In this document: piece by piece, positions 1,006 through 63,728 of the stretch
How positions within the stretch are numbered: position 1 is the first letter of the stretch
How the letters are laid out: each line of letters opens with the position of its first letter
Virus record (IMG/VR): IMGVR_UViG_3300023213_000432
Location: 64,001-128,000 of that record
Length of the DNA stretch: 64,000 nt
Origin: a virus
Taxonomy: Duplodnaviria > Caudoviricetes
Reading direction: 5' to 3' (one strand)
Translations under genes and position numbers: made by a program
The notes under the pieces: model-generated
The model's database searches: none
What the model saw: only the letters and a program-made list of their open reading frames with translations
What the model was told of the DNA's origin: nothing

Positions 1006-1140
1006 ATGTATGGAGAGCCTGAAGATGTAGCGGGACAATGCAATGCTCATCTTTATATTGAAGATAATTTTGGTGACAATCATGCTACTATGCGATGCCA
1101 ATTAGCTCTTGGACATGCGGGAAAACATCGAGGTCAATAA
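1006..1140 (+). CDS. Small hypothetical protein; stop codon supplied by the adjacent isrB element
   Basis: AAGGAG upstream of ATG 1006; ends GGT CAA TAA inside the element end. Confidence 0.55.
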   Translation: MYGEPEDVAGQCNAHLYIEDNFGDNHATMRCQLALGHAGKHRGQ

Positions 1141-1435
1141 CCCATGACTAAACTCATGGGCTTGTGCGAAGGGAACCAGTCATTCTCTTTTGATCAAGAC
1201 TAAAATATTGTACTAGACGCAGATCAGAATAGGAGACATTAAGTCAAATAATAGATCAAATAGGCAGATCAGGATCGCTAATGACGAGACTGGAAAAGAT
1301 TACGCTACTGGATGTTTCGCTAGTCTGTAGCCGCATCTCCGTAAGGAGATGCCGATATCTCATCGATAATTTTATGAGGTATTCGCTGTGTTCTGCTTAT
1401 GTCGAAGCGAGTTGAACAAGGCACGTAAGTGCAAT
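1133..1435 (+). ncRNA. omegaRNA (HEARO-like) scaffold of isrB copy 1; guide = 5' flanking sequence; 3' end approximate
   Basis: HEARO-like blocks GTCAA..CCC/GGGCTTG, ACTGGATGTTTCGCTAGTCTGTAGC and TGTCGAAGCGAG; conserved in 6 copies. Confidence 0.85.
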
Positions 1436-2499
1436 TCTTTAGGAAAAGAAACAACATTGGTTCCCGTCATCGATAATCATAAACAACCATTAATGCCCTG
1501 CTCTGAGAAAAGAGCTAGGAAATTTATGGAGAAAGGCAGCGCTATCTCATATTGGCAGAAAGGTATCTTTTGCATTCGTCTAACTAAAGAACCTTCTAAC
1601 CGAAATAAACAACCCATTGCTCTTGGGATTGATCCGGGAAGTAAAAGAGAAGGATATACTGTCGCTACCAAGAAAGCGGTGGTTCTCAATATCACGACTA
1701 ATACTCCAAACTGGATTAAAGAACATATAGAAGCTCGTAGAAACCTTCGAAGATCTAGAAGATACCGAAAGACCCCTTATCGTTCTTGTCGAGAAAACAG
1801 AGCTACTTTACGAAAAAATCGTATTCCTCCTTCTACCAAAGCGAGATGGAACGCTAAACTGAGAATGGTTAAATTTCTTCTGAAAATTATTCCTATTACC
1901 ATCATTAATGTAGAAGATATTTCTGCTACCACTAAGAAAGGGCAGGCAAAATGGAATGCATCCTTTTCTCCTTTGGAGGTTGGAAAAACTTGGCTATATC
2001 AAGAGATAGAAAATTTAGGAGTTCAGCTTCTCAAAACCCAAGGATATCAAACTCAAGAAAAGCGAAATCAACGAGGCTTTCAGAAATCATCTTCTAAGCT
2101 TAGCTATTCTTGGAATGCTCATAACGTAGATAGTCATGTTCTTGCAGAGATAGCGTTAGGAACAGAAATCTCTCCATATTATGGATTGTGGAAAATAGAG
2201 TTTTTAGAATTTCATCGAAGACAACTTCATGTTCAGAATCCAATCAGAGGCAATATTAGAAAACAATATGGAACCACTATTTCTTTAGGAATGTCAAGAG
2301 GATCTATCGTGAAATATGAAGGTAAGCTTTATTATCTTGGAGGAAGCAGCAAAGATAAAATTGCTATTCATAATATCATTACAGGAAAAAGAGTTAAACA
2401 ATACGTCAAGATGGGAGATATTGACGTTTTATATACACAGAATAGGAGAGTTCAATTCCTCCCACGATTAAAATCGTGGGTCTCCTTGAACCAATTTTC
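1133..2499 (+). mobile_element. IS200/IS605-family isrB (OMEGA) element, copy 1, non-autonomous (no tnpA)
   Basis: Starts GTCAATAAC + hairpin CCCATGACTAAACTCATGGG; ends with hairpin CCCACGATTAAAATCGTGGG...CCAATTTTC followed by ATGA; ends shared with 5 other copies. Confidence 0.92.
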
Positions 2500-2503
2500 A
2501 TGA
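1457..2503 (+). CDS. isrB: IsrB RNA-guided nickase (PLMP + split RuvC, no HNH), 348 aa, TTG start
   Basis: PLMP motif; RuvC-I GIDPGSK; Arg-rich bridge helix RRNLRRSRRYRKT; RuvC-II VEDI; RuvC-III HNVDSH; no HNH motif. Confidence 0.9.
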   Translation: MVPVIDNHKQPLMPCSEKRARKFMEKGSAISYWQKGIFCIRLTKEPSNRNKQPIALGIDPGSKREGYTVATKKAVVLNITTNTPNWIKEHIEARRNLRRSRRYRKTPYRSCRENRATLRKNRIPPSTKARWNAKLRMVKFLLKIIPITIINVEDISATTKKGQAKWNASFSPLEVGKTWLYQEIENLGVQLLKTQGYQTQEKRNQRGFQKSSSKLSYSWNAHNVDSHVLAEIALGTEISPYYGLWKIEFLEFHRRQLHVQNPIRGNIRKQYGTTISLGMSRGSIVKYEGKLYYLGGSSKDKIAIHNIITGKRVKQYVKMGDIDVLYTQNRRVQFLPRLKSWVSLNQFS

Positions 2504-3645
2504 CAACAGCATCCAAAATTTTAACTAAGATGTTAGGAAGCGTGGTTCAGTCTTCCGCCAAATCATTGCTCGGCACCCAAATTAAAAAGACAGTGAATGG
2601 TCTGATCAAAAATCTTACTAAGAAATCTCAAGAGAATATTGAGAAAGAAATTGTTGAAAGACTTGGCTATATGAGTAGCCACTATCGTCTTGATAAGGAT
2701 CAAAATATTCTTTTTAAGCCGAGTCCAATTTTCTTTCATGAGTGGCTGAATAACTCCCCGATAATGGCGGGCAGGATCATTAAAGATGAAGAGAACGGGT
2801 CGATTTTCATTGATGACAAACTAATCGAAAATTCCCATAAGGTGGAAATTATCAAAGAGTTCATTAAAAATACTGATGCTCAATCTGCTGCATTGGGATC
2901 CTATTTGACTAGGGCTTTGGATTTCTTTGATGCCAGCGATTTCATTGGTAAAAAATTCGCCAAGACTTTTGATGGTTGGACAGAAGGAACTCCTAGCGTT
3001 ATTGATGAATTCTTGCAGGGATGCTTTGGAACCGCTCTGGAAACTGACGAAGAATATAGTCGTTTAATTTTCAGGAGATGGATGATTAGTGCAGCCCGAA
3101 GGATTATGAAGCCGGGTTCGGTTGCCGATCTGTGCTTCACTCTGCAAGGAAAACCGGGCGTTGGAAAAAGTGCATTTCTCAAAAACCTGATGCCATCGCC
3201 TTTTGATGAGCGCACCGGCATCGTCTATTGTGACATTCGTAACCCACAGAAACTTGTGGAAAATTTGATTGGATTGAGCATTGCTAATATGGACGAATTG
3301 AATATTTTGGAGATCCCGAAGACGACTGAGGTATTCAAAATGCTTTTAAGCGCTACTTCGGTGATTACCAGACTGCCTTGGCGTCGTGATCCTAAAAAGT
3401 TCGACCTCCGAGTTGCTTTTGCGGCGACCACTAATAAATCAAAATTCATTAATGATGAAGCTCTTAAACGAAGGATGGGAGTGATTGAATTGAACGGAAG
3501 CCAAAAACTTAATTTTCAATATCTTGAAGAACAAAAATCCAATTTATGGAAAGAATCAGTTTGGCTTGCTAATCAAGGAATCAGTTGCACTCTTGATATT
3601 AGAGAGCAGGAGCGTGTGGAATCATTCAATACAAAATTTATCTAA
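2500..3645 (+). CDS. VirE/VapE-like P-loop NTPase (primase-helicase type)
   Basis: Walker A LQGKPGVGKSAF; MDEL; RLPWRR..K; FAATTN; RRMGVI; true start is ATG 2500 just outside the element. Confidence 0.85.
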   Translation: MTTASKILTKMLGSVVQSSAKSLLGTQIKKTVNGLIKNLTKKSQENIEKEIVERLGYMSSHYRLDKDQNILFKPSPIFFHEWLNNSPIMAGRIIKDEENGSIFIDDKLIENSHKVEIIKEFIKNTDAQSAALGSYLTRALDFFDASDFIGKKFAKTFDGWTEGTPSVIDEFLQGCFGTALETDEEYSRLIFRRWMISAARRIMKPGSVADLCFTLQGKPGVGKSAFLKNLMPSPFDERTGIVYCDIRNPQKLVENLIGLSIANMDELNILEIPKTTEVFKMLLSATSVITRLPWRRDPKKFDLRVAFAATTNKSKFINDEALKRRMGVIELNGSQKLNFQYLEEQKSNLWKESVWLANQGISCTLDIREQERVESFNTKFI

Positions 3646-62433: not shown

Positions 62434-62753
62434 GCTGATTGACGACAGCCTAACCTGGGTAGCATATAGCATCCAAGAAGTGTTGAGGTTCTCTAAATAG
62501 CGATCATAACCGTCTCTCTTTCCAAATAAAGGAAAGTGCCTTTAATCTCGATCATCTCAACTGGTCTAACCTATTGTTTTTTTATTCCTCAAAGGATTGA
62601 TTGAGGAAACCTGTTAACATTAACTCTTTCTGCTATAACTTAGATAGCAAAATAATATATAACCTTTATTTTAAGGTTGTCAAGAGAAAAAAGAAAGAAA
62701 AATGGCCATTCCTCCCATAGCACAAGGCTATGGGTATCTTTGCCTAAGAGATC
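62334..62753 (-). mobile_element. reRNA-only mini tnpB-type element (TCAT target), divergent interior
   Basis: Ends match the full tnpB element; internal TTGACA-16 nt-TATATT. Confidence 0.88.
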
Positions 62754-63017
62754 ATGAAAAAGTTTATCATCCATAGAGACTCCATTATTGAAGTGGAATG
62801 CACTCAACTCATGCCCGCTGACGATCCATCCGTGGCTTGGCTTCCCAAAGAGGAATATAAAGCTAGAATTGAAGCACCATCTACCTTGTTTGAAAAAGTT
62901 AATAACAAATTAGAAAAACCAAAATGGTATAGTTTTGCTTTTTACGATACTTTAGAACAAGCTAAAGAGGCAGCAGCCAGCGATATTCGAGTAGTGTTGG
63001 AACGTAAACAAGATTAA
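62754..63017 (+). CDS. Hypothetical protein
   Basis: Starts at the ATGA flank. Confidence 0.6.
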   Translation: MKKFIIHRDSIIEVECTQLMPADDPSVAWLPKEEYKARIEAPSTLFEKVNNKLEKPKWYSFAFYDTLEQAKEAAASDIRVVLERKQD

Positions 63018-63111
63018 ACATGGTACCAACTTCGTTGAAGAAGACATTAAAAAGCAAATAAAAATTATAATATTATGTTTATGAAAATTCAAGACATAGG
63101 AGATTAAACAA

Positions 63112-63728
63112 ATGACAACACGATTTCAAGTTGGAGATTACGTTTTGCGGATGGAAGCAGATTTTTCAAGCGGCATATTAGTGCATGGCGGTATTTATCA
63201 AATTGCCGGCGTTATTAATGATCCTCGGACTATTAAGTTGATAGGGTTTGGGGGAGTTGGGATGTCCATAGGTTTAAATTGATTAAATCTCCCTACGCTC
63301 AATCTTGTCCTTGTGGCATCCATTGGAGTCAATTACCAATGACTAAAGTCCTTGGCTTGTCGCTCATCCTACCATAAGCAGGAGGTTATTTTTTAATGGC
63401 AACAATAGGCTGATTGACAGCAGCCCTTAATAAAGTTTGGCGTTTCTAATAGCGACCCTTTAAAAAAACCGTTTGCTTATTCGATCATAAATGATCGAGT
63501 TAAGTGCCTTCTAGGTCTCGATTCGCTAAACATAGGATAATAGCTTTCTAACTCATCTCTTACCTCTTTCTGTTACATTTGGGTAGCAAAAGATATATAA
63601 CCACCATTCTTGGAAGTTTTTTAGAAAAAGAAAGAAAAAGCAATTCCTCCCATGATTAAAATCATGGGCTTCTTTGCTAAGAAGATCGTGAATGCCCTCA
63701 ACATATTCAAGAAGTAAAAGCTTTCTAA
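63112..63728 (+). pseudogene. SH3-like + CPCGI Zn-motif gene split by mini element 63328-63687, plus a G-run frameshift near 63250
   Basis: Removal joins SCPCGIHW|SECPQH in frame. Confidence 0.75.
63328..63687 (-). mobile_element. reRNA-only mini tnpB-type element (TCAC target)
   Basis: Near-identical to 30032-30386. Confidence 0.88.

What the first reader, a model, noticed from the sequence alone, without database searches (positions are those of the whole stretch)
1133..63687. Phage-borne dual OMEGA system: IsrB and TnpB elements with shared ends and a dispersed set of trans guide RNAs
Seen: 14 elements share one end architecture (one end always GTCAA/TTGAC + hairpin, the other next to ATGA/GTGA/GTAA on +). 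They are 3 intact isrB, 1 intact tnpB, 3 omegaRNA-only minis, 5 reRNA-only minis and 2 remnants; no tnpA is in the window. isrB and tnpB sit in opposite orientation relative to these ends. Established: IsrB uses a 5' guide and 3' TAM, TnpB a 3' guide and 5' TAM, and both guides come from the flank. Inference: predicted TAMs are ATGA (IsrB) and TCAT (TnpB), reverse complements. A nickase and a double-strand nuclease would therefore recognise the same kind of empty site from opposite strands, with about a dozen different guides available in trans. That could work as a distributed, CRISPR-like homing or competition system against related element-free phages.
Basis: partly seen in the sequence, partly recalled or inferred. 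Interest (0 to 1): 0.85.

Follow-up and report, generated by a model that had tools for sequence, protein, structure and literature searches.

The report
IsrB/TnpB transposon swarm in a huge phage
A fragment of a very large phage genome is colonised by one family of IS200/IS605 transposons that carry the RNA-guided nucleases IsrB or TnpB, or only their guide-RNA genes; this is a known kind of selfish element in an unusual, densely populated home, not a new CRISPR-like system.

Summary
The window holds 14 elements with one end architecture: 3 isrB, 1 tnpB, 3 omegaRNA-only minis, 5 TnpB-guide-RNA minis and 2 remnants. The whole 198.6-kb viral contig holds at least 24.

On the transposon top strand (mostly the window's minus strand) each reads: TCAT/TCAC/TTAC | 19 nt | hairpin ... 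hairpin | TTATTGAC | flank. This is the IS608 layout.

A Y1 transposase very like IS608 TnpA lies 18 kb upstream of the window, beside another tnpB.

Related huge-phage contigs give exact empty sites:
- Deleting the mini at 54466-54846 restores a NUDIX reading frame.
- Deleting the isrB element at 46843-48206 restores the rIIB / next-gene junction.
- The tnpB element splits a 131-aa gene that is continuous elsewhere.

The nucleases keep their catalytic residues. isrB copies have dN/dS of about 0.2. The omegaRNA scaffolds, minis included, stay fully foldable with compensatory changes.

Each guide matches only its own flank, so this is transposon retention/homing (Meers 2023), not a dual or CRISPR-like weapon. 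Expression, trans-loading and phage-to-phage homing remain untested.

The scan also noted this stretch from an overlapping window. I class it as a new member of a known kind, of moderate interest.

The parts
1133..2499 (+). Full isrB element. omegaRNA about 1133-1440. isrB CDS 1457-2503 with a TTG start; its stop TGA lies in the ATGA at 2500-2503, which is also the start codon of the VapE-like helicase/primase gene.
   Evidence: The orthologous VapE start in L007 is uninterrupted.
9013..9122 (+). Remnant: the first ~110 nt of an omegaRNA with a mutated end (GCCAAT), fused directly to the ATGA start of the next gene.
9379..9835 (+). omegaRNA-only mini: complete scaffold plus the last ~108 nt of the element including the LE hairpin, followed by ATGA.
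   Evidence: In L007 a full-length isrB element (9749-11082) sits before the same downstream gene start.
11938..12386 (+). omegaRNA-only mini with the same internal deletion junction as 9379 and 35327.
30032..30386 (-). TnpB-type mini (T subfamily): LE hairpin, remains of the tnpB start, guide-RNA scaffold, RE ending in TTGAC. Target site is TCAC (GTGA on the plus strand).
35327..35787 (+). omegaRNA-only mini at the ATGA stop/start overlap between the aminotransferase gene and the next gene.
36328..37579 (-). Full tnpB element. Consensus promoter at 37511-37482, tnpB CDS 37477-36350, guide-RNA scaffold overlapping the 3' end of the gene, RE ending in TTGAC at 36328. It splits a 131-aa gene.
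   Evidence: The split gene is shown by P0003/L005.
46843..48206 (+). Full isrB element (CDS 47164-48210), inserted between rIIB and the next gene. The rIIB stop codon is now the TAA inside GTCAATAA.
   Evidence: Exact empty site in L009 and L010.
50403..51761 (+). Full isrB element (CDS 50719-51762), inserted at the ATGA start of the 854-aa gene. It truncates a small upstream SH3-like ORF.
54466..54846 (+). TnpB-type mini in the inverted orientation (top strand is the plus strand; TCAT at 54462-54465), inserted inside a NUDIX gene.
   Evidence: Removing it restores ...ETGIEVH|GGAFIY..., matching L008, L009 and L010.
56029..56377 (-). TnpB-type mini (T subfamily). Target site is TTAC (GTAA on the plus strand).
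58088..58133 (+). 46-nt remnant: the GTCAATAA end, a hairpin and 18 nt of omegaRNA, followed by the ATGA start of a 96-aa ORF.
62334..62753 (-). TnpB-type mini closest to the 36328 element. It keeps the promoter (11 of 12 consensus positions, 62683-62654) and the guide-RNA scaffold. Target site is TCAT.
63328..63687 (-). TnpB-type mini (T subfamily), 94% identical overall to 30032-30386 (98% over one 141-nt block). Target site is TCAC.

Best explanation
The window is part of a huge-phage genome that has been colonised, over a long time, by one lineage of IS200/IS605 single-strand ('peel-and-paste') transposons.

Mobilisation. All copies share IS608-like ends and are presumably moved in trans by the one Y1 TnpA on the contig. 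They insert 3' of TCAT (less often TCAC or TTAC) without duplicating the target.

Cargo. An element carries one of three things:
- isrB with its ~290-nt omegaRNA. This is transcribed inwards from the upstream phage gene, so its 5' guide is the flank.
- tnpB with its own promoter and a 3' guide RNA that runs out through the same end into the same flank.
- Only the guide-RNA gene, in internal-deletion derivatives.

Function. By analogy with tested TnpB and IscB elements, the nuclease-RNA complexes recognise the element-free version of their own insertion site (flank + TAM). They nick or cut it, so that recombination with an occupied copy restores or spreads the element. In a phage, the occupied copy would be a sister genome in the replicating pool or a co-infecting genome. 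Minis would depend on proteins supplied in trans.

Shown here: the anatomy, the exact boundaries, the insertion-site motif, presence/absence among related phages, gene disruption, intact catalytic motifs, purifying selection on isrB, and conserved RNA folds.

Inferred: transposition by this particular TnpA, RNA expression and loading, cleavage, and homing.
For: 1. Ends.
- LE is TAM | 19 nt | hairpin. RE is hairpin + TTATTGAC.
- IS608 cuts 3' of TTAC, 19 nt 5' of its LE hairpin, with the guide tetranucleotide AAAG next to the hairpin (PMC3201880).
- The tnpA-bearing copy here has exactly TTAC, 19 nt and AAAG.

2. TnpA. 141 bits to Y1_Tnp. E = 7e-37 to the ISHp608 transposase, with HUH and the catalytic Tyr region aligned.

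3. Exact boundaries and no target duplication.
- Deleting 54466-54846 restores a NUDIX ORF identical at the junction to relatives.
- Deleting 46843-48206 gives ...TTG|ATGAA..., as in L009 and L010.
- The tnpB element separates two halves of a 131-aa protein that is continuous in P0003: 69% identity for the N part, 45% for the C part.

4. Nucleases.
- IsrB matches DtIsrB (8DMB) at E = 1.8e-33, with the DPG, ED and H..D motifs aligned.
- TnpB has the D/E/D triad and the zinc finger.
- The four isrB copies have dN/dS 0.17-0.23 at dS 0.40-0.48.

5. RNAs.
- The HEARO model aligns end to end starting exactly at GTCAA (22.8 bits, below threshold).
- 22 of 71 pairs covary across 9 copies.
- In the six window copies, 474 of 475 pair cells are canonical and 11 pairs carry double changes. 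Slid controls give 30-44%.
- The TnpB-side scaffold is conserved in all five minis.

6. Mobility in trans.
- The three omega-minis share one deletion junction but sit at three loci.
- T-minis are 92-94% identical overall, up to 98% over one 141-nt block, at three loci.

7. Literature.
- Shared ends for TnpB and IscB elements, one TnpA acting in trans, PATEs encoding omegaRNAs, and the need for read-through transcription for IscB guides.
- NTGA TAM of IsrB.
- An IsrB element inserted at ATGA in phage Mic1.
Against: - No experiment or RNA data. No RNA run holds this phage.
- No near-identical phage lacking an element was found, so current mobility and homing are unproven.
- The hairpins of the tnpA-bearing copy differ in sequence from those of the isrB and tnpB copies, and I could not place its RE. 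Cross-mobilisation is therefore an assumption.
- The T-subfamily minis have no cognate full-length tnpB with the same RE hairpin on this contig. The contig is only about 46% of the genome by CheckV.
- isrB copies are old (dS about 0.45). They may have spread by recombination between phages rather than by recent transposition.
- The HEARO match is far below Rfam's gathering score.
- The RNA structure used for pair counts was derived from the same alignment.
Confidence: 0.8

Rival explanations
1. One reading: the phage uses the dozen dispersed guides with IsrB and TnpB as a distributed, CRISPR-like weapon or exclusion system. The system would benefit the phage by damaging related, element-free competitors during co-infection.
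For: - Twelve distinct flank guides with intact scaffolds lie in 64 kb.
- The nucleases are under purifying selection.
- The genome also carries several free-standing HNH and GIY-YIG homing endonuclease genes, which in T-even phages mediate marker exclusion (review PMC13565253).
- A nearly complete 394-kb phage keeps 1 isrB and 5 tnpB without any tnpA.
- TnpB drives IS605 through plasmid populations without TnpA (Mears 2025, cited).
Against: - Guides match only their own flanks. They could act only on near-identical genomes lacking that very insertion. The relatives I could find differ at 7 or more of 24 positions and not at the orthologous place.
- At least three insertions damage phage genes: NUDIX, which now also has a frameshift; a 131-aa gene; and the rIIB tail. 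That is what a parasite does, not a weapon.
- Any exclusion effect would be a by-product of homing that benefits the element first.
Confidence: 0.12
2. Mostly fossil. The elements are old and immobile. The minis are inert deletion relics, and their RNA scaffolds persist only because too little time has passed.
For: - Copies are 8-14% diverged from each other.
- isrB dS is about 0.45.
- One insertion site is occupied in a relative whose flanking proteins are only about 45-55% identical.
- Remnants and 46-nt solo hairpins show ongoing decay.
Against: - At 8-10% divergence, random change should have broken many of the 80 pairs. Only one cell is non-canonical, and 11 pairs changed on both sides.
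- isrB dN/dS is about 0.2.
- T-minis reach 98% identity over a 141-nt block at different loci.
- All end hairpins and TTGAC / TAM junctions are intact in 12 of the 14 elements.
Confidence: 0.15
3. Domesticated RNA-guided regulators (TldR-like, nuclease-dead) or self-splicing IStrons rather than transposon nucleases.
For: Some TnpB relatives have been domesticated as RNA-guided repressors (PMC10705468, listed). Elements often sit exactly at gene starts.
Against: - Catalytic residues are present.
- Transposon ends are intact.
- The guides equal the flanks.
- There is no group I intron or any other Rfam family at gathering score in the window.
- The interrupted NUDIX gene has decayed further, so it is not rescued by splicing.
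Confidence: 0.03

Closest known systems
ISGst-type IS605 elements of Geobacillus stearothermophilus (Meers et al. 2023, doi 10.1101/2023.03.14.532601)
   Same: - One genome holds TnpB- and Cas9-like (IscB) elements with similar LE and RE, few tnpA copies, and gene-less PATEs that encode guide RNAs and need proteins in trans.
- The IscB-type guide lies outside the RE and is read in from the upstream gene.
- The nucleases cut the empty donor joint.
   Different: - Here the host replicon is a huge phage, not a bacterial chromosome.
- The Cas9-like partner is the HNH-less nickase IsrB.
- Density is about one element per 8 kb.
- Nothing has been tested experimentally.
IS608 of Helicobacter pylori (TnpA structures 2A6M/2VJV; PMC3201880)
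   Same: - TnpA is closely related (E = 7e-37).
- The LE cleavage site lies 19 nt 5' of the hairpin. The tnpA-bearing copy has the same TTAC target and AAAG guide tetranucleotide.
- The RE is cut a few nt 3' of its hairpin.
   Different: - Most copies use TCAT, and their RE ends in TTGAC, 8 nt after the hairpin.
- LE and RE hairpins are near-identical direct repeats. This has produced 46-nt single-hairpin derivatives.
DtIsrB of Desulfovirgula thermocuniculi (PDB 8DMB; PMC9581776)
   Same: - About 350 aa, with PLMP/RRXRR and split RuvC and no HNH.
- An omegaRNA of about 280-300 nt with a 5' guide.
- TAM NTGA (ATGA accepted).
   Different: - The alignment shown covers query residues 2-277; its identity figure was not printed.
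- The omegaRNA matches HEARO only below threshold.
- Here the ORF runs through the LE, and its stop codon is the TGA of the TAM.
IsrB-like insertion in cyanosiphophage Mic1 gp49 (PMC11237433)
   Same: An IsrB-encoding element inserted at 5'-ATGA-3' in a phage genome, interrupting a gene.
   Different: That is a single, recent, host-derived insertion that lowers infectivity. Here a resident, diversified family with minis is shared with related huge phages.
Free-standing and intron-borne homing endonucleases of T-even and SPO1-like phages (Seg, Mob, I-HmuI)
   Same: Selfish nucleases in large virulent phages that cut or nick the allele lacking them and spread by recombination during co-infection. 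This genome also carries HNH and GIY-YIG genes.
   Different: Target recognition here would be by RNA guide plus a 4-nt motif, and the element also has a transposition route.

Membership tests
IS200/IS605 transposons | Y1 HUH transposase (TnpA) | tested here: met
   One copy on the contig, outside the window (G000:C1:45433-45786). Pfam 141 bits, NCBIfam transpos_IS200 149 bits, and E = 7e-37 to ISHp608 TnpA with HUH and Tyr aligned.
IS200/IS605 transposons | Subterminal hairpins at both ends, no terminal inverted repeats | tested here: met
   LE and RE hairpins are present in 12 of the 14 window elements.
IS200/IS605 transposons | Insertion 3' of a fixed tetranucleotide, without target duplication | tested here: met
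   The site is TCAT in 15 elements, TCAC in 2 and TTAC in 2. Precise in-silico removal restores the NUDIX ORF and the rIIB junction seen in relatives.
IS200/IS605 transposons | Cleavage site read by a guide tetranucleotide 5' of the LE hairpin | tested here: inconclusive
   My own reading of the sequences. Targets ending in C have a tetranucleotide ending in G (4 of 4). Targets ending in T have one ending in A (13 of 15). The copies are not independent, and position 2 does not covary.
IS200/IS605 transposons | Excision and insertion as single-stranded DNA | not testable with these tools
   Needs an excision assay.
IsrB (OMEGA nickase) | PLMP/RRXRR N-terminus, split RuvC, no HNH domain, about 350 aa | tested here: met
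   RRXRR is the only Pfam family hit. The NCBIfam IscB model matches only the N-terminal half. E = 1.8e-33 to 8DMB with the DPG, ED and H..D motifs aligned.
IsrB (OMEGA nickase) | Structured omegaRNA of about 300 nt upstream of the gene, guide at its 5' end | tested here: met
   HEARO aligns from GTCAA over the full model, but at only 22.8 bits. Covariation is seen. The guide itself is inferred from position.
IsrB (OMEGA nickase) | NTGA TAM 3' of the target; nicking of the non-target strand | not testable with these tools
   The site data (ATGA next to the LE) agree with the published TAM. Activity was not tested.
TnpB (OMEGA nuclease) | RuvC D-E-D triad, zinc finger, family model above cut-off | tested here: met
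   NCBIfam guided_TnpB 184 bits against a cut-off of 100. Motifs GIDRG, LEDL, NADLN and CxxC...CxxC are present.
TnpB (OMEGA nuclease) | Guide-RNA scaffold overlapping the 3' end of the gene and the RE, guide in the 3' flank | tested here: met
   A conserved GGGCUG...CAGCCU hairpin, a long-range stem and the RE hairpin occur in the gene copy and in all five minis. Five of 22 pairs covary between subfamilies.
CRISPR-like adaptive system | Array of spacers matching foreign DNA, plus acquisition genes | tested here: not met
   Each guide is the element's own flank and has no other close match with a TAM on the contig. There is no repeat-spacer array.
IStron | Group I intron fused to the IS, restoring the interrupted gene by splicing | tested here: not met
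   No Rfam family reaches gathering score. The interrupted NUDIX gene carries a further frameshift.

The most novel reading that the evidence does not exclude
A lineage of IsrB/TnpB IS200/IS605 elements may have become long-term residents of a clade of huge phages. During co-infection their flank-derived guides, including those of the gene-less minis served in trans, would nick or cut element-free alleles of closely related phages. A dozen loci per 64 kb would then behave as RNA-guided gene drives, dragging neighbouring phage markers with them. That would be a multi-locus, RNA-programmed analogue of T4 marker exclusion.
Probability: 0.2. Interest if true: 0.75.

Novelty: new member of a known kind. 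Interest (0 to 1): 0.45.

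Why it matters
OMEGA nucleases are the ancestors of Cas9 and Cas12. Their natural role, transposon retention and homing, has been shown in bacteria and plasmids. For co-infecting phages it has only been proposed (PMC13565253).

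This contig and its relatives show that a diversified IsrB/TnpB family lives in huge phages at high density. Occupied and empty orthologous sites, minis that keep foldable guide RNAs, and a TAM that coincides with phage start codons are all present. That makes huge phages a natural place to test RNA-guided homing between viral genomes.

It also supplies compact IsrB/omegaRNA and TnpB/guide-RNA pairs with a simple ATGA/TCAT TAM. The biology itself follows known rules.

Tried and rejected
- Megablast of 8 kb against GenBank phages found no match.
- The search for related loci with the aminotransferase and the rIIA-like protein found no close relatives in IMG/VR.
- The 862-aa protein is absent from the three IMG/VR records that carry related isrB.
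- Sequencing runs:
  - Only one DNA run (subsurface metagenome) was listed, with a 0.09 share of words. No RNA holder was listed.
  - Laying its contigs gave low-depth pieces of the same phage and no joint across any element. It therefore gave no information on empty alleles or expression.
- The look-up of the window's own IsrB returned nothing.
- The 412-kb relative is not held for the genome search.
- The isrB3 site could not be aligned cleanly to relatives.
- I could not place the RE boundary of the tnpA-tnpB element.
- The tnpB at contig position 191369-192568 lacks the shared scaffold motif and belongs to another element type.
- Promoter-like sites are not more frequent than in shuffles overall. 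Only the 12/12 and 11/12 sites at homologous positions inside the tnpB LE are noteworthy.
- Rejected readings: a CRISPR-like system, an IStron, a nuclease-dead regulator, and an assembly chimera. The last is excluded because synteny of the flanks with other huge-phage contigs runs straight through the insertion sites.

Full report
**What the window is**

The window is bases 64001-128000 of a 198,652-bp IMG/VR virus record that CheckV rates 46% complete. Its gene content is that of a large virulent phage:
- rIIA-like and rIIB genes at 43933-46850
- a VapE-type helicase/primase
- an RNA ligase
- a DUF7275 phage protein
- several free-standing HNH and GIY-YIG endonuclease genes

Gene order is shared with other very large contigs: 412 kb (L006-L008), and 22.9 and 14.7 kb (L009, L010). 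Protein identity to these is 45-67%.

Coordinates are given under 'parts'.

Three elements carry isrB (Pfam RRXRR 138-141 bits). One carries tnpB (Pfam OrfB_IS605 plus the Cas12f TNB domain; NCBIfam guided_TnpB 184 bits).

Three are isrB elements whose gene has been deleted but whose upstream RNA region is complete. Five are tnpB elements reduced to end + promoter region + guide-RNA scaffold + end. Two are stumps.

The contig as a whole has 4 isrB, 4 tnpB (one of an unrelated type), and at least 24 elements of this end family. These include three 46-nt derivatives made of a single hairpin between the two termini.

**Anatomy**

Read on the transposon's top strand (the window's minus strand for 13 of 14 elements), every intact copy is: TAM | 19 nt (18-20 in a few) | 7-8-bp hairpin ... 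cargo ... hairpin | TTATTGAC | flank.

The TAM is TCAT in 15 elements, TCAC in 2 and TTAC in 2. The flank beyond TTGAC is different at every copy.

This is the IS608 plan. IS608 is cut 3' of TTAC, 19 nt 5' of the LE hairpin. That site is read by the tetranucleotide AAAG next to the hairpin, and the RE is cut a few nucleotides 3' of its hairpin (PMC3201880).

**A transposase is present after all**

A Y1 transposase gene lies 18 kb upstream of the window, next to another tnpB. It matches the ISHp608 transposase at E = 7e-37, with the HUH motif and the catalytic tyrosine region aligned. Its own LE has TTAC, a 19-nt spacer and AAAG, exactly as in IS608.

Across the family, the last base of the TAM tracks the last base of the tetranucleotide beside the LE hairpin. 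C goes with G in 4 of 4, and T goes with A in 13 of 15 (my reading). This fits DNA-guided target choice, but the copies are not independent.

I could not locate the RE of the tnpA-bearing copy, and its hairpins differ in sequence from the others. That it mobilises all subfamilies is therefore an inference.

**Exact boundaries from related phages**

1. The inverted mini at 54466-54846 lies inside a NUDIX gene.
   - Removing exactly those bases joins ...GTT CAT | GGT GGT... and gives ...ETGIEVH|GGAFIY...
   - The 412-kb relative reads ETGIEVHGGMFIF.
   - This fixes both ends to the nucleotide and shows there is no target duplication.
   - The interrupted gene has since picked up a frameshift, so it is a decaying pseudogene.
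2. Removing the isrB element at 46843-48206 gives ...AAAGGTTG|ATGAATCTATTAGAC.... In L009 and L010 the same place reads ...TTG|ATGAACCTTCTTGAC..., the rIIB stop next to the start of the orthologous downstream gene.
3. The tnpB element at 36328-37579 separates a 61-codon and a 69-codon fragment. A 131-aa protein from another metagenome aligns to the first over its residues 1-60 (69% identity) and to the second over residues 63-131 (45%).
4. The VapE-type gene that follows the isrB element at 1133-2499 starts with an uninterrupted ATGA in the 412-kb relative.
5. Conversely, the site of the mini at 9379-9835 is occupied in that relative by a full-length isrB element, in front of the same downstream gene start.

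Presence therefore varies between related phages, and the family is an old resident of this phage group. A 394-kb, 92%-complete IMG/VR phage also carries 1 isrB and 5 tnpB but no tnpA.

**The proteins look active**

IsrB aligns with DtIsrB (8DMB) at E = 1.8e-33, with the RuvC motifs conserved. It has no HNH domain.

TnpB has GIDRG, LEDL and NADLN and the zinc finger.

The four isrB copies are 81-87% identical in protein, with dN/dS 0.17-0.23 and dS 0.40-0.48. They are old and under purifying selection.

All isrB genes start at TTG and run through the LE hairpin. The last sense codon straddles the element boundary, and the stop is the TGA of the ATGA target. The same holds in the related loci L002, L003 and L007.

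**The RNAs**

Rfam's HEARO model (the IscB omegaRNA family) aligns over its full length, beginning exactly at GTCAA. The score is only 22.8 bits against a gathering score of 83.

In nine copies, including three from other viral contigs, 22 of 71 predicted pairs show changes on both sides.

In the six copies inside the window, 474 of 475 pair cells are canonical and 11 pairs carry double changes. Controls with slid partners give 30-44% and 1-2 pairs. One caveat applies: the structure was predicted from the same alignment.

The minis therefore keep a foldable scaffold despite 8-10% divergence.

On the TnpB side, a GGGCUG...CAGCCU hairpin, a long-range stem and the RE hairpin are conserved between the gene copy and all five minis. 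Compensatory differences separate the subfamilies.

The tnpB element has a perfect TTGACA-18-TATAAT promoter just inside the LE. The mini at 62334 keeps 11 of those 12 positions. The T-subfamily minis retain the ribosome-binding site and the first two or three codons of tnpB.

**Evidence for mobilisation in trans**

The three omega-minis share one internal deletion junction, yet lie at three different loci. The T-minis are 92-94% identical overall, and up to 98% over one 141-nt block, at three loci. Gene-less copies have therefore been moved in trans.

**What the guides can target**

The 16 nt beyond TTGAC of each of 20 elements occurs only once on the contig without mismatch, at its own place. 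There it is preceded by TTGAC, not by a TAM.

So there is no self-targeting and no second target. Each RNA can only address the empty version of its own site. In the diverged relatives available, the orthologous sequences do not match the guides.

For this reason I do not accept the 'dual system on one site' or the 'CRISPR-like' wording. The reverse-complement TAMs (ATGA and TCAT) and the opposite gene orientation follow from two cargo types sharing one transposase target. This was already described for TnpB and IscB elements of Geobacillus, as were guide-RNA-bearing PATEs that need proteins in trans and the dependence of IscB-type guides on read-through from the upstream gene.

All isrB-type copies here are co-oriented with the phage genes, as that model requires.

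**Relation to phage genes**

In 12 of 19 elements, the ATG or GTG of the target motif begins a downstream ORF of 74 aa or more. Only 25% of all ATGA sites on that strand do so.

The GTCAATAACCCATGACTAA end contains stop codons in all three frames, which I read directly from the sequence. Upstream genes are therefore closed within 20 nt, and the isrB stop overlaps the downstream start.

Most surviving insertions are thus nearly harmless junction insertions. The NUDIX gene, the 131-aa gene, the rIIB tail and a small SH3-like ORF were nevertheless damaged. That pattern is what selection against harmful insertions of a selfish element would leave.

**Comparison with what is known**

The mechanism I favour is peel-and-paste transposition plus RNA-guided cleavage of the empty site, followed by recombinational restoration. 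This is established for TnpB and IscB.

TnpB-dependent, TnpA-independent spread through plasmid populations has been reported. Spread to co-infecting phages has been proposed only in theory. An IsrB element inserted at ATGA in a cyanophage gene has been published. RRXRR genes are annotated in several phages, including a 485-kb uncultured phage and Bacillus phage AgentSmith.

What is added here is a densely colonised huge phage with both cargo types, minis, solo hairpins, and orthologous empty and occupied sites in relatives.

**Verdict**

The feature is real and well defined, and it is a new member of a known kind. The functional superstructure built on it is not supported by anything in the sequence, though phage-to-phage homing remains a reasonable and testable expectation.

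Noticed in passing
window 54235-55071: A NUDIX hydrolase gene is interrupted by the mini at 54466-54846. It also carries a frameshift near its 3' end relative to L008, L009 and L010, so it is a decaying pseudogene.
   Followed up: yes
G000:C1:53781-53826, 54750-54795 and 154043-154088 (outside the window); window 58088-58133: Elements of 46 nt: the RE's 8 nt, one hairpin and the LE's 19 nt, next to ATGA. They probably arose by deletion between the near-identical, directly repeated LE and RE hairpins. I do not know whether TnpA can still move them.
   Followed up: partly
window 2500-2503, 48207-48210, 51760-51765; L002, L003, L007: The isrB ORF runs through the LE, and its stop codon is the TGA of the ATGA target, outside the transposon. 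That TGA overlaps the ATG of the downstream phage gene, so translational coupling is possible. The arrangement is conserved in related viral contigs.
   Followed up: partly
window 37542-37520 and 30351-30329 (minus strand): A terminator-like hairpin followed by a T-run lies just inside the LE, upstream of the tnpB promoter. It resembles the transcription barrier described for IS200; that comparison is from my own knowledge.
   Followed up: no
whole contig: There is a strong strand bias. About 20 of 22 elements have their top strand on the contig's minus strand, including TnpB-type copies that do not need read-through transcription. Whether this reflects replication direction or selection is unexplained.
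   Followed up: no
window 3894-4802 (-), 31861-32727 (-), 39954-41327 (+), 42871-44148 (-): These are free-standing HNH and GIY-YIG endonuclease genes. The HNH gene at 3894-4802 has no counterpart in the syntenic L007. The GIY-YIG gene beside rIIA is present in L008 but absent in L009 and L010. This is classical homing-endonuclease polymorphism alongside the OMEGA elements.
   Followed up: partly
window 6219-7979, 15577-17463, 20133-22949, 51762-54326: Four large paralogous proteins share a C-terminal block (repeat family D15). They have SH3-like N-terminal units resembling the small genes at 36144 and about 50280.
   Followed up: no
window 29322-29907: Four tandem coding repeats of about 180 nt (families D10 and D16), immediately upstream of the mini at 30032.
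   Followed up: no
run X1, contig laid at window 50403-50566: A contig from the only holding run carries the same omegaRNA start behind a flank that does not occur on this contig. This is another copy, either elsewhere in this phage or in a relative.
   Followed up: no
protein collection: The window's own proteins are also recorded on a 327,423-bp contig. Many of the closest IsrB homologues sit on contigs of 130-410 kb. This hints that the IsrB clade is largely borne by huge phages.
   Followed up: no
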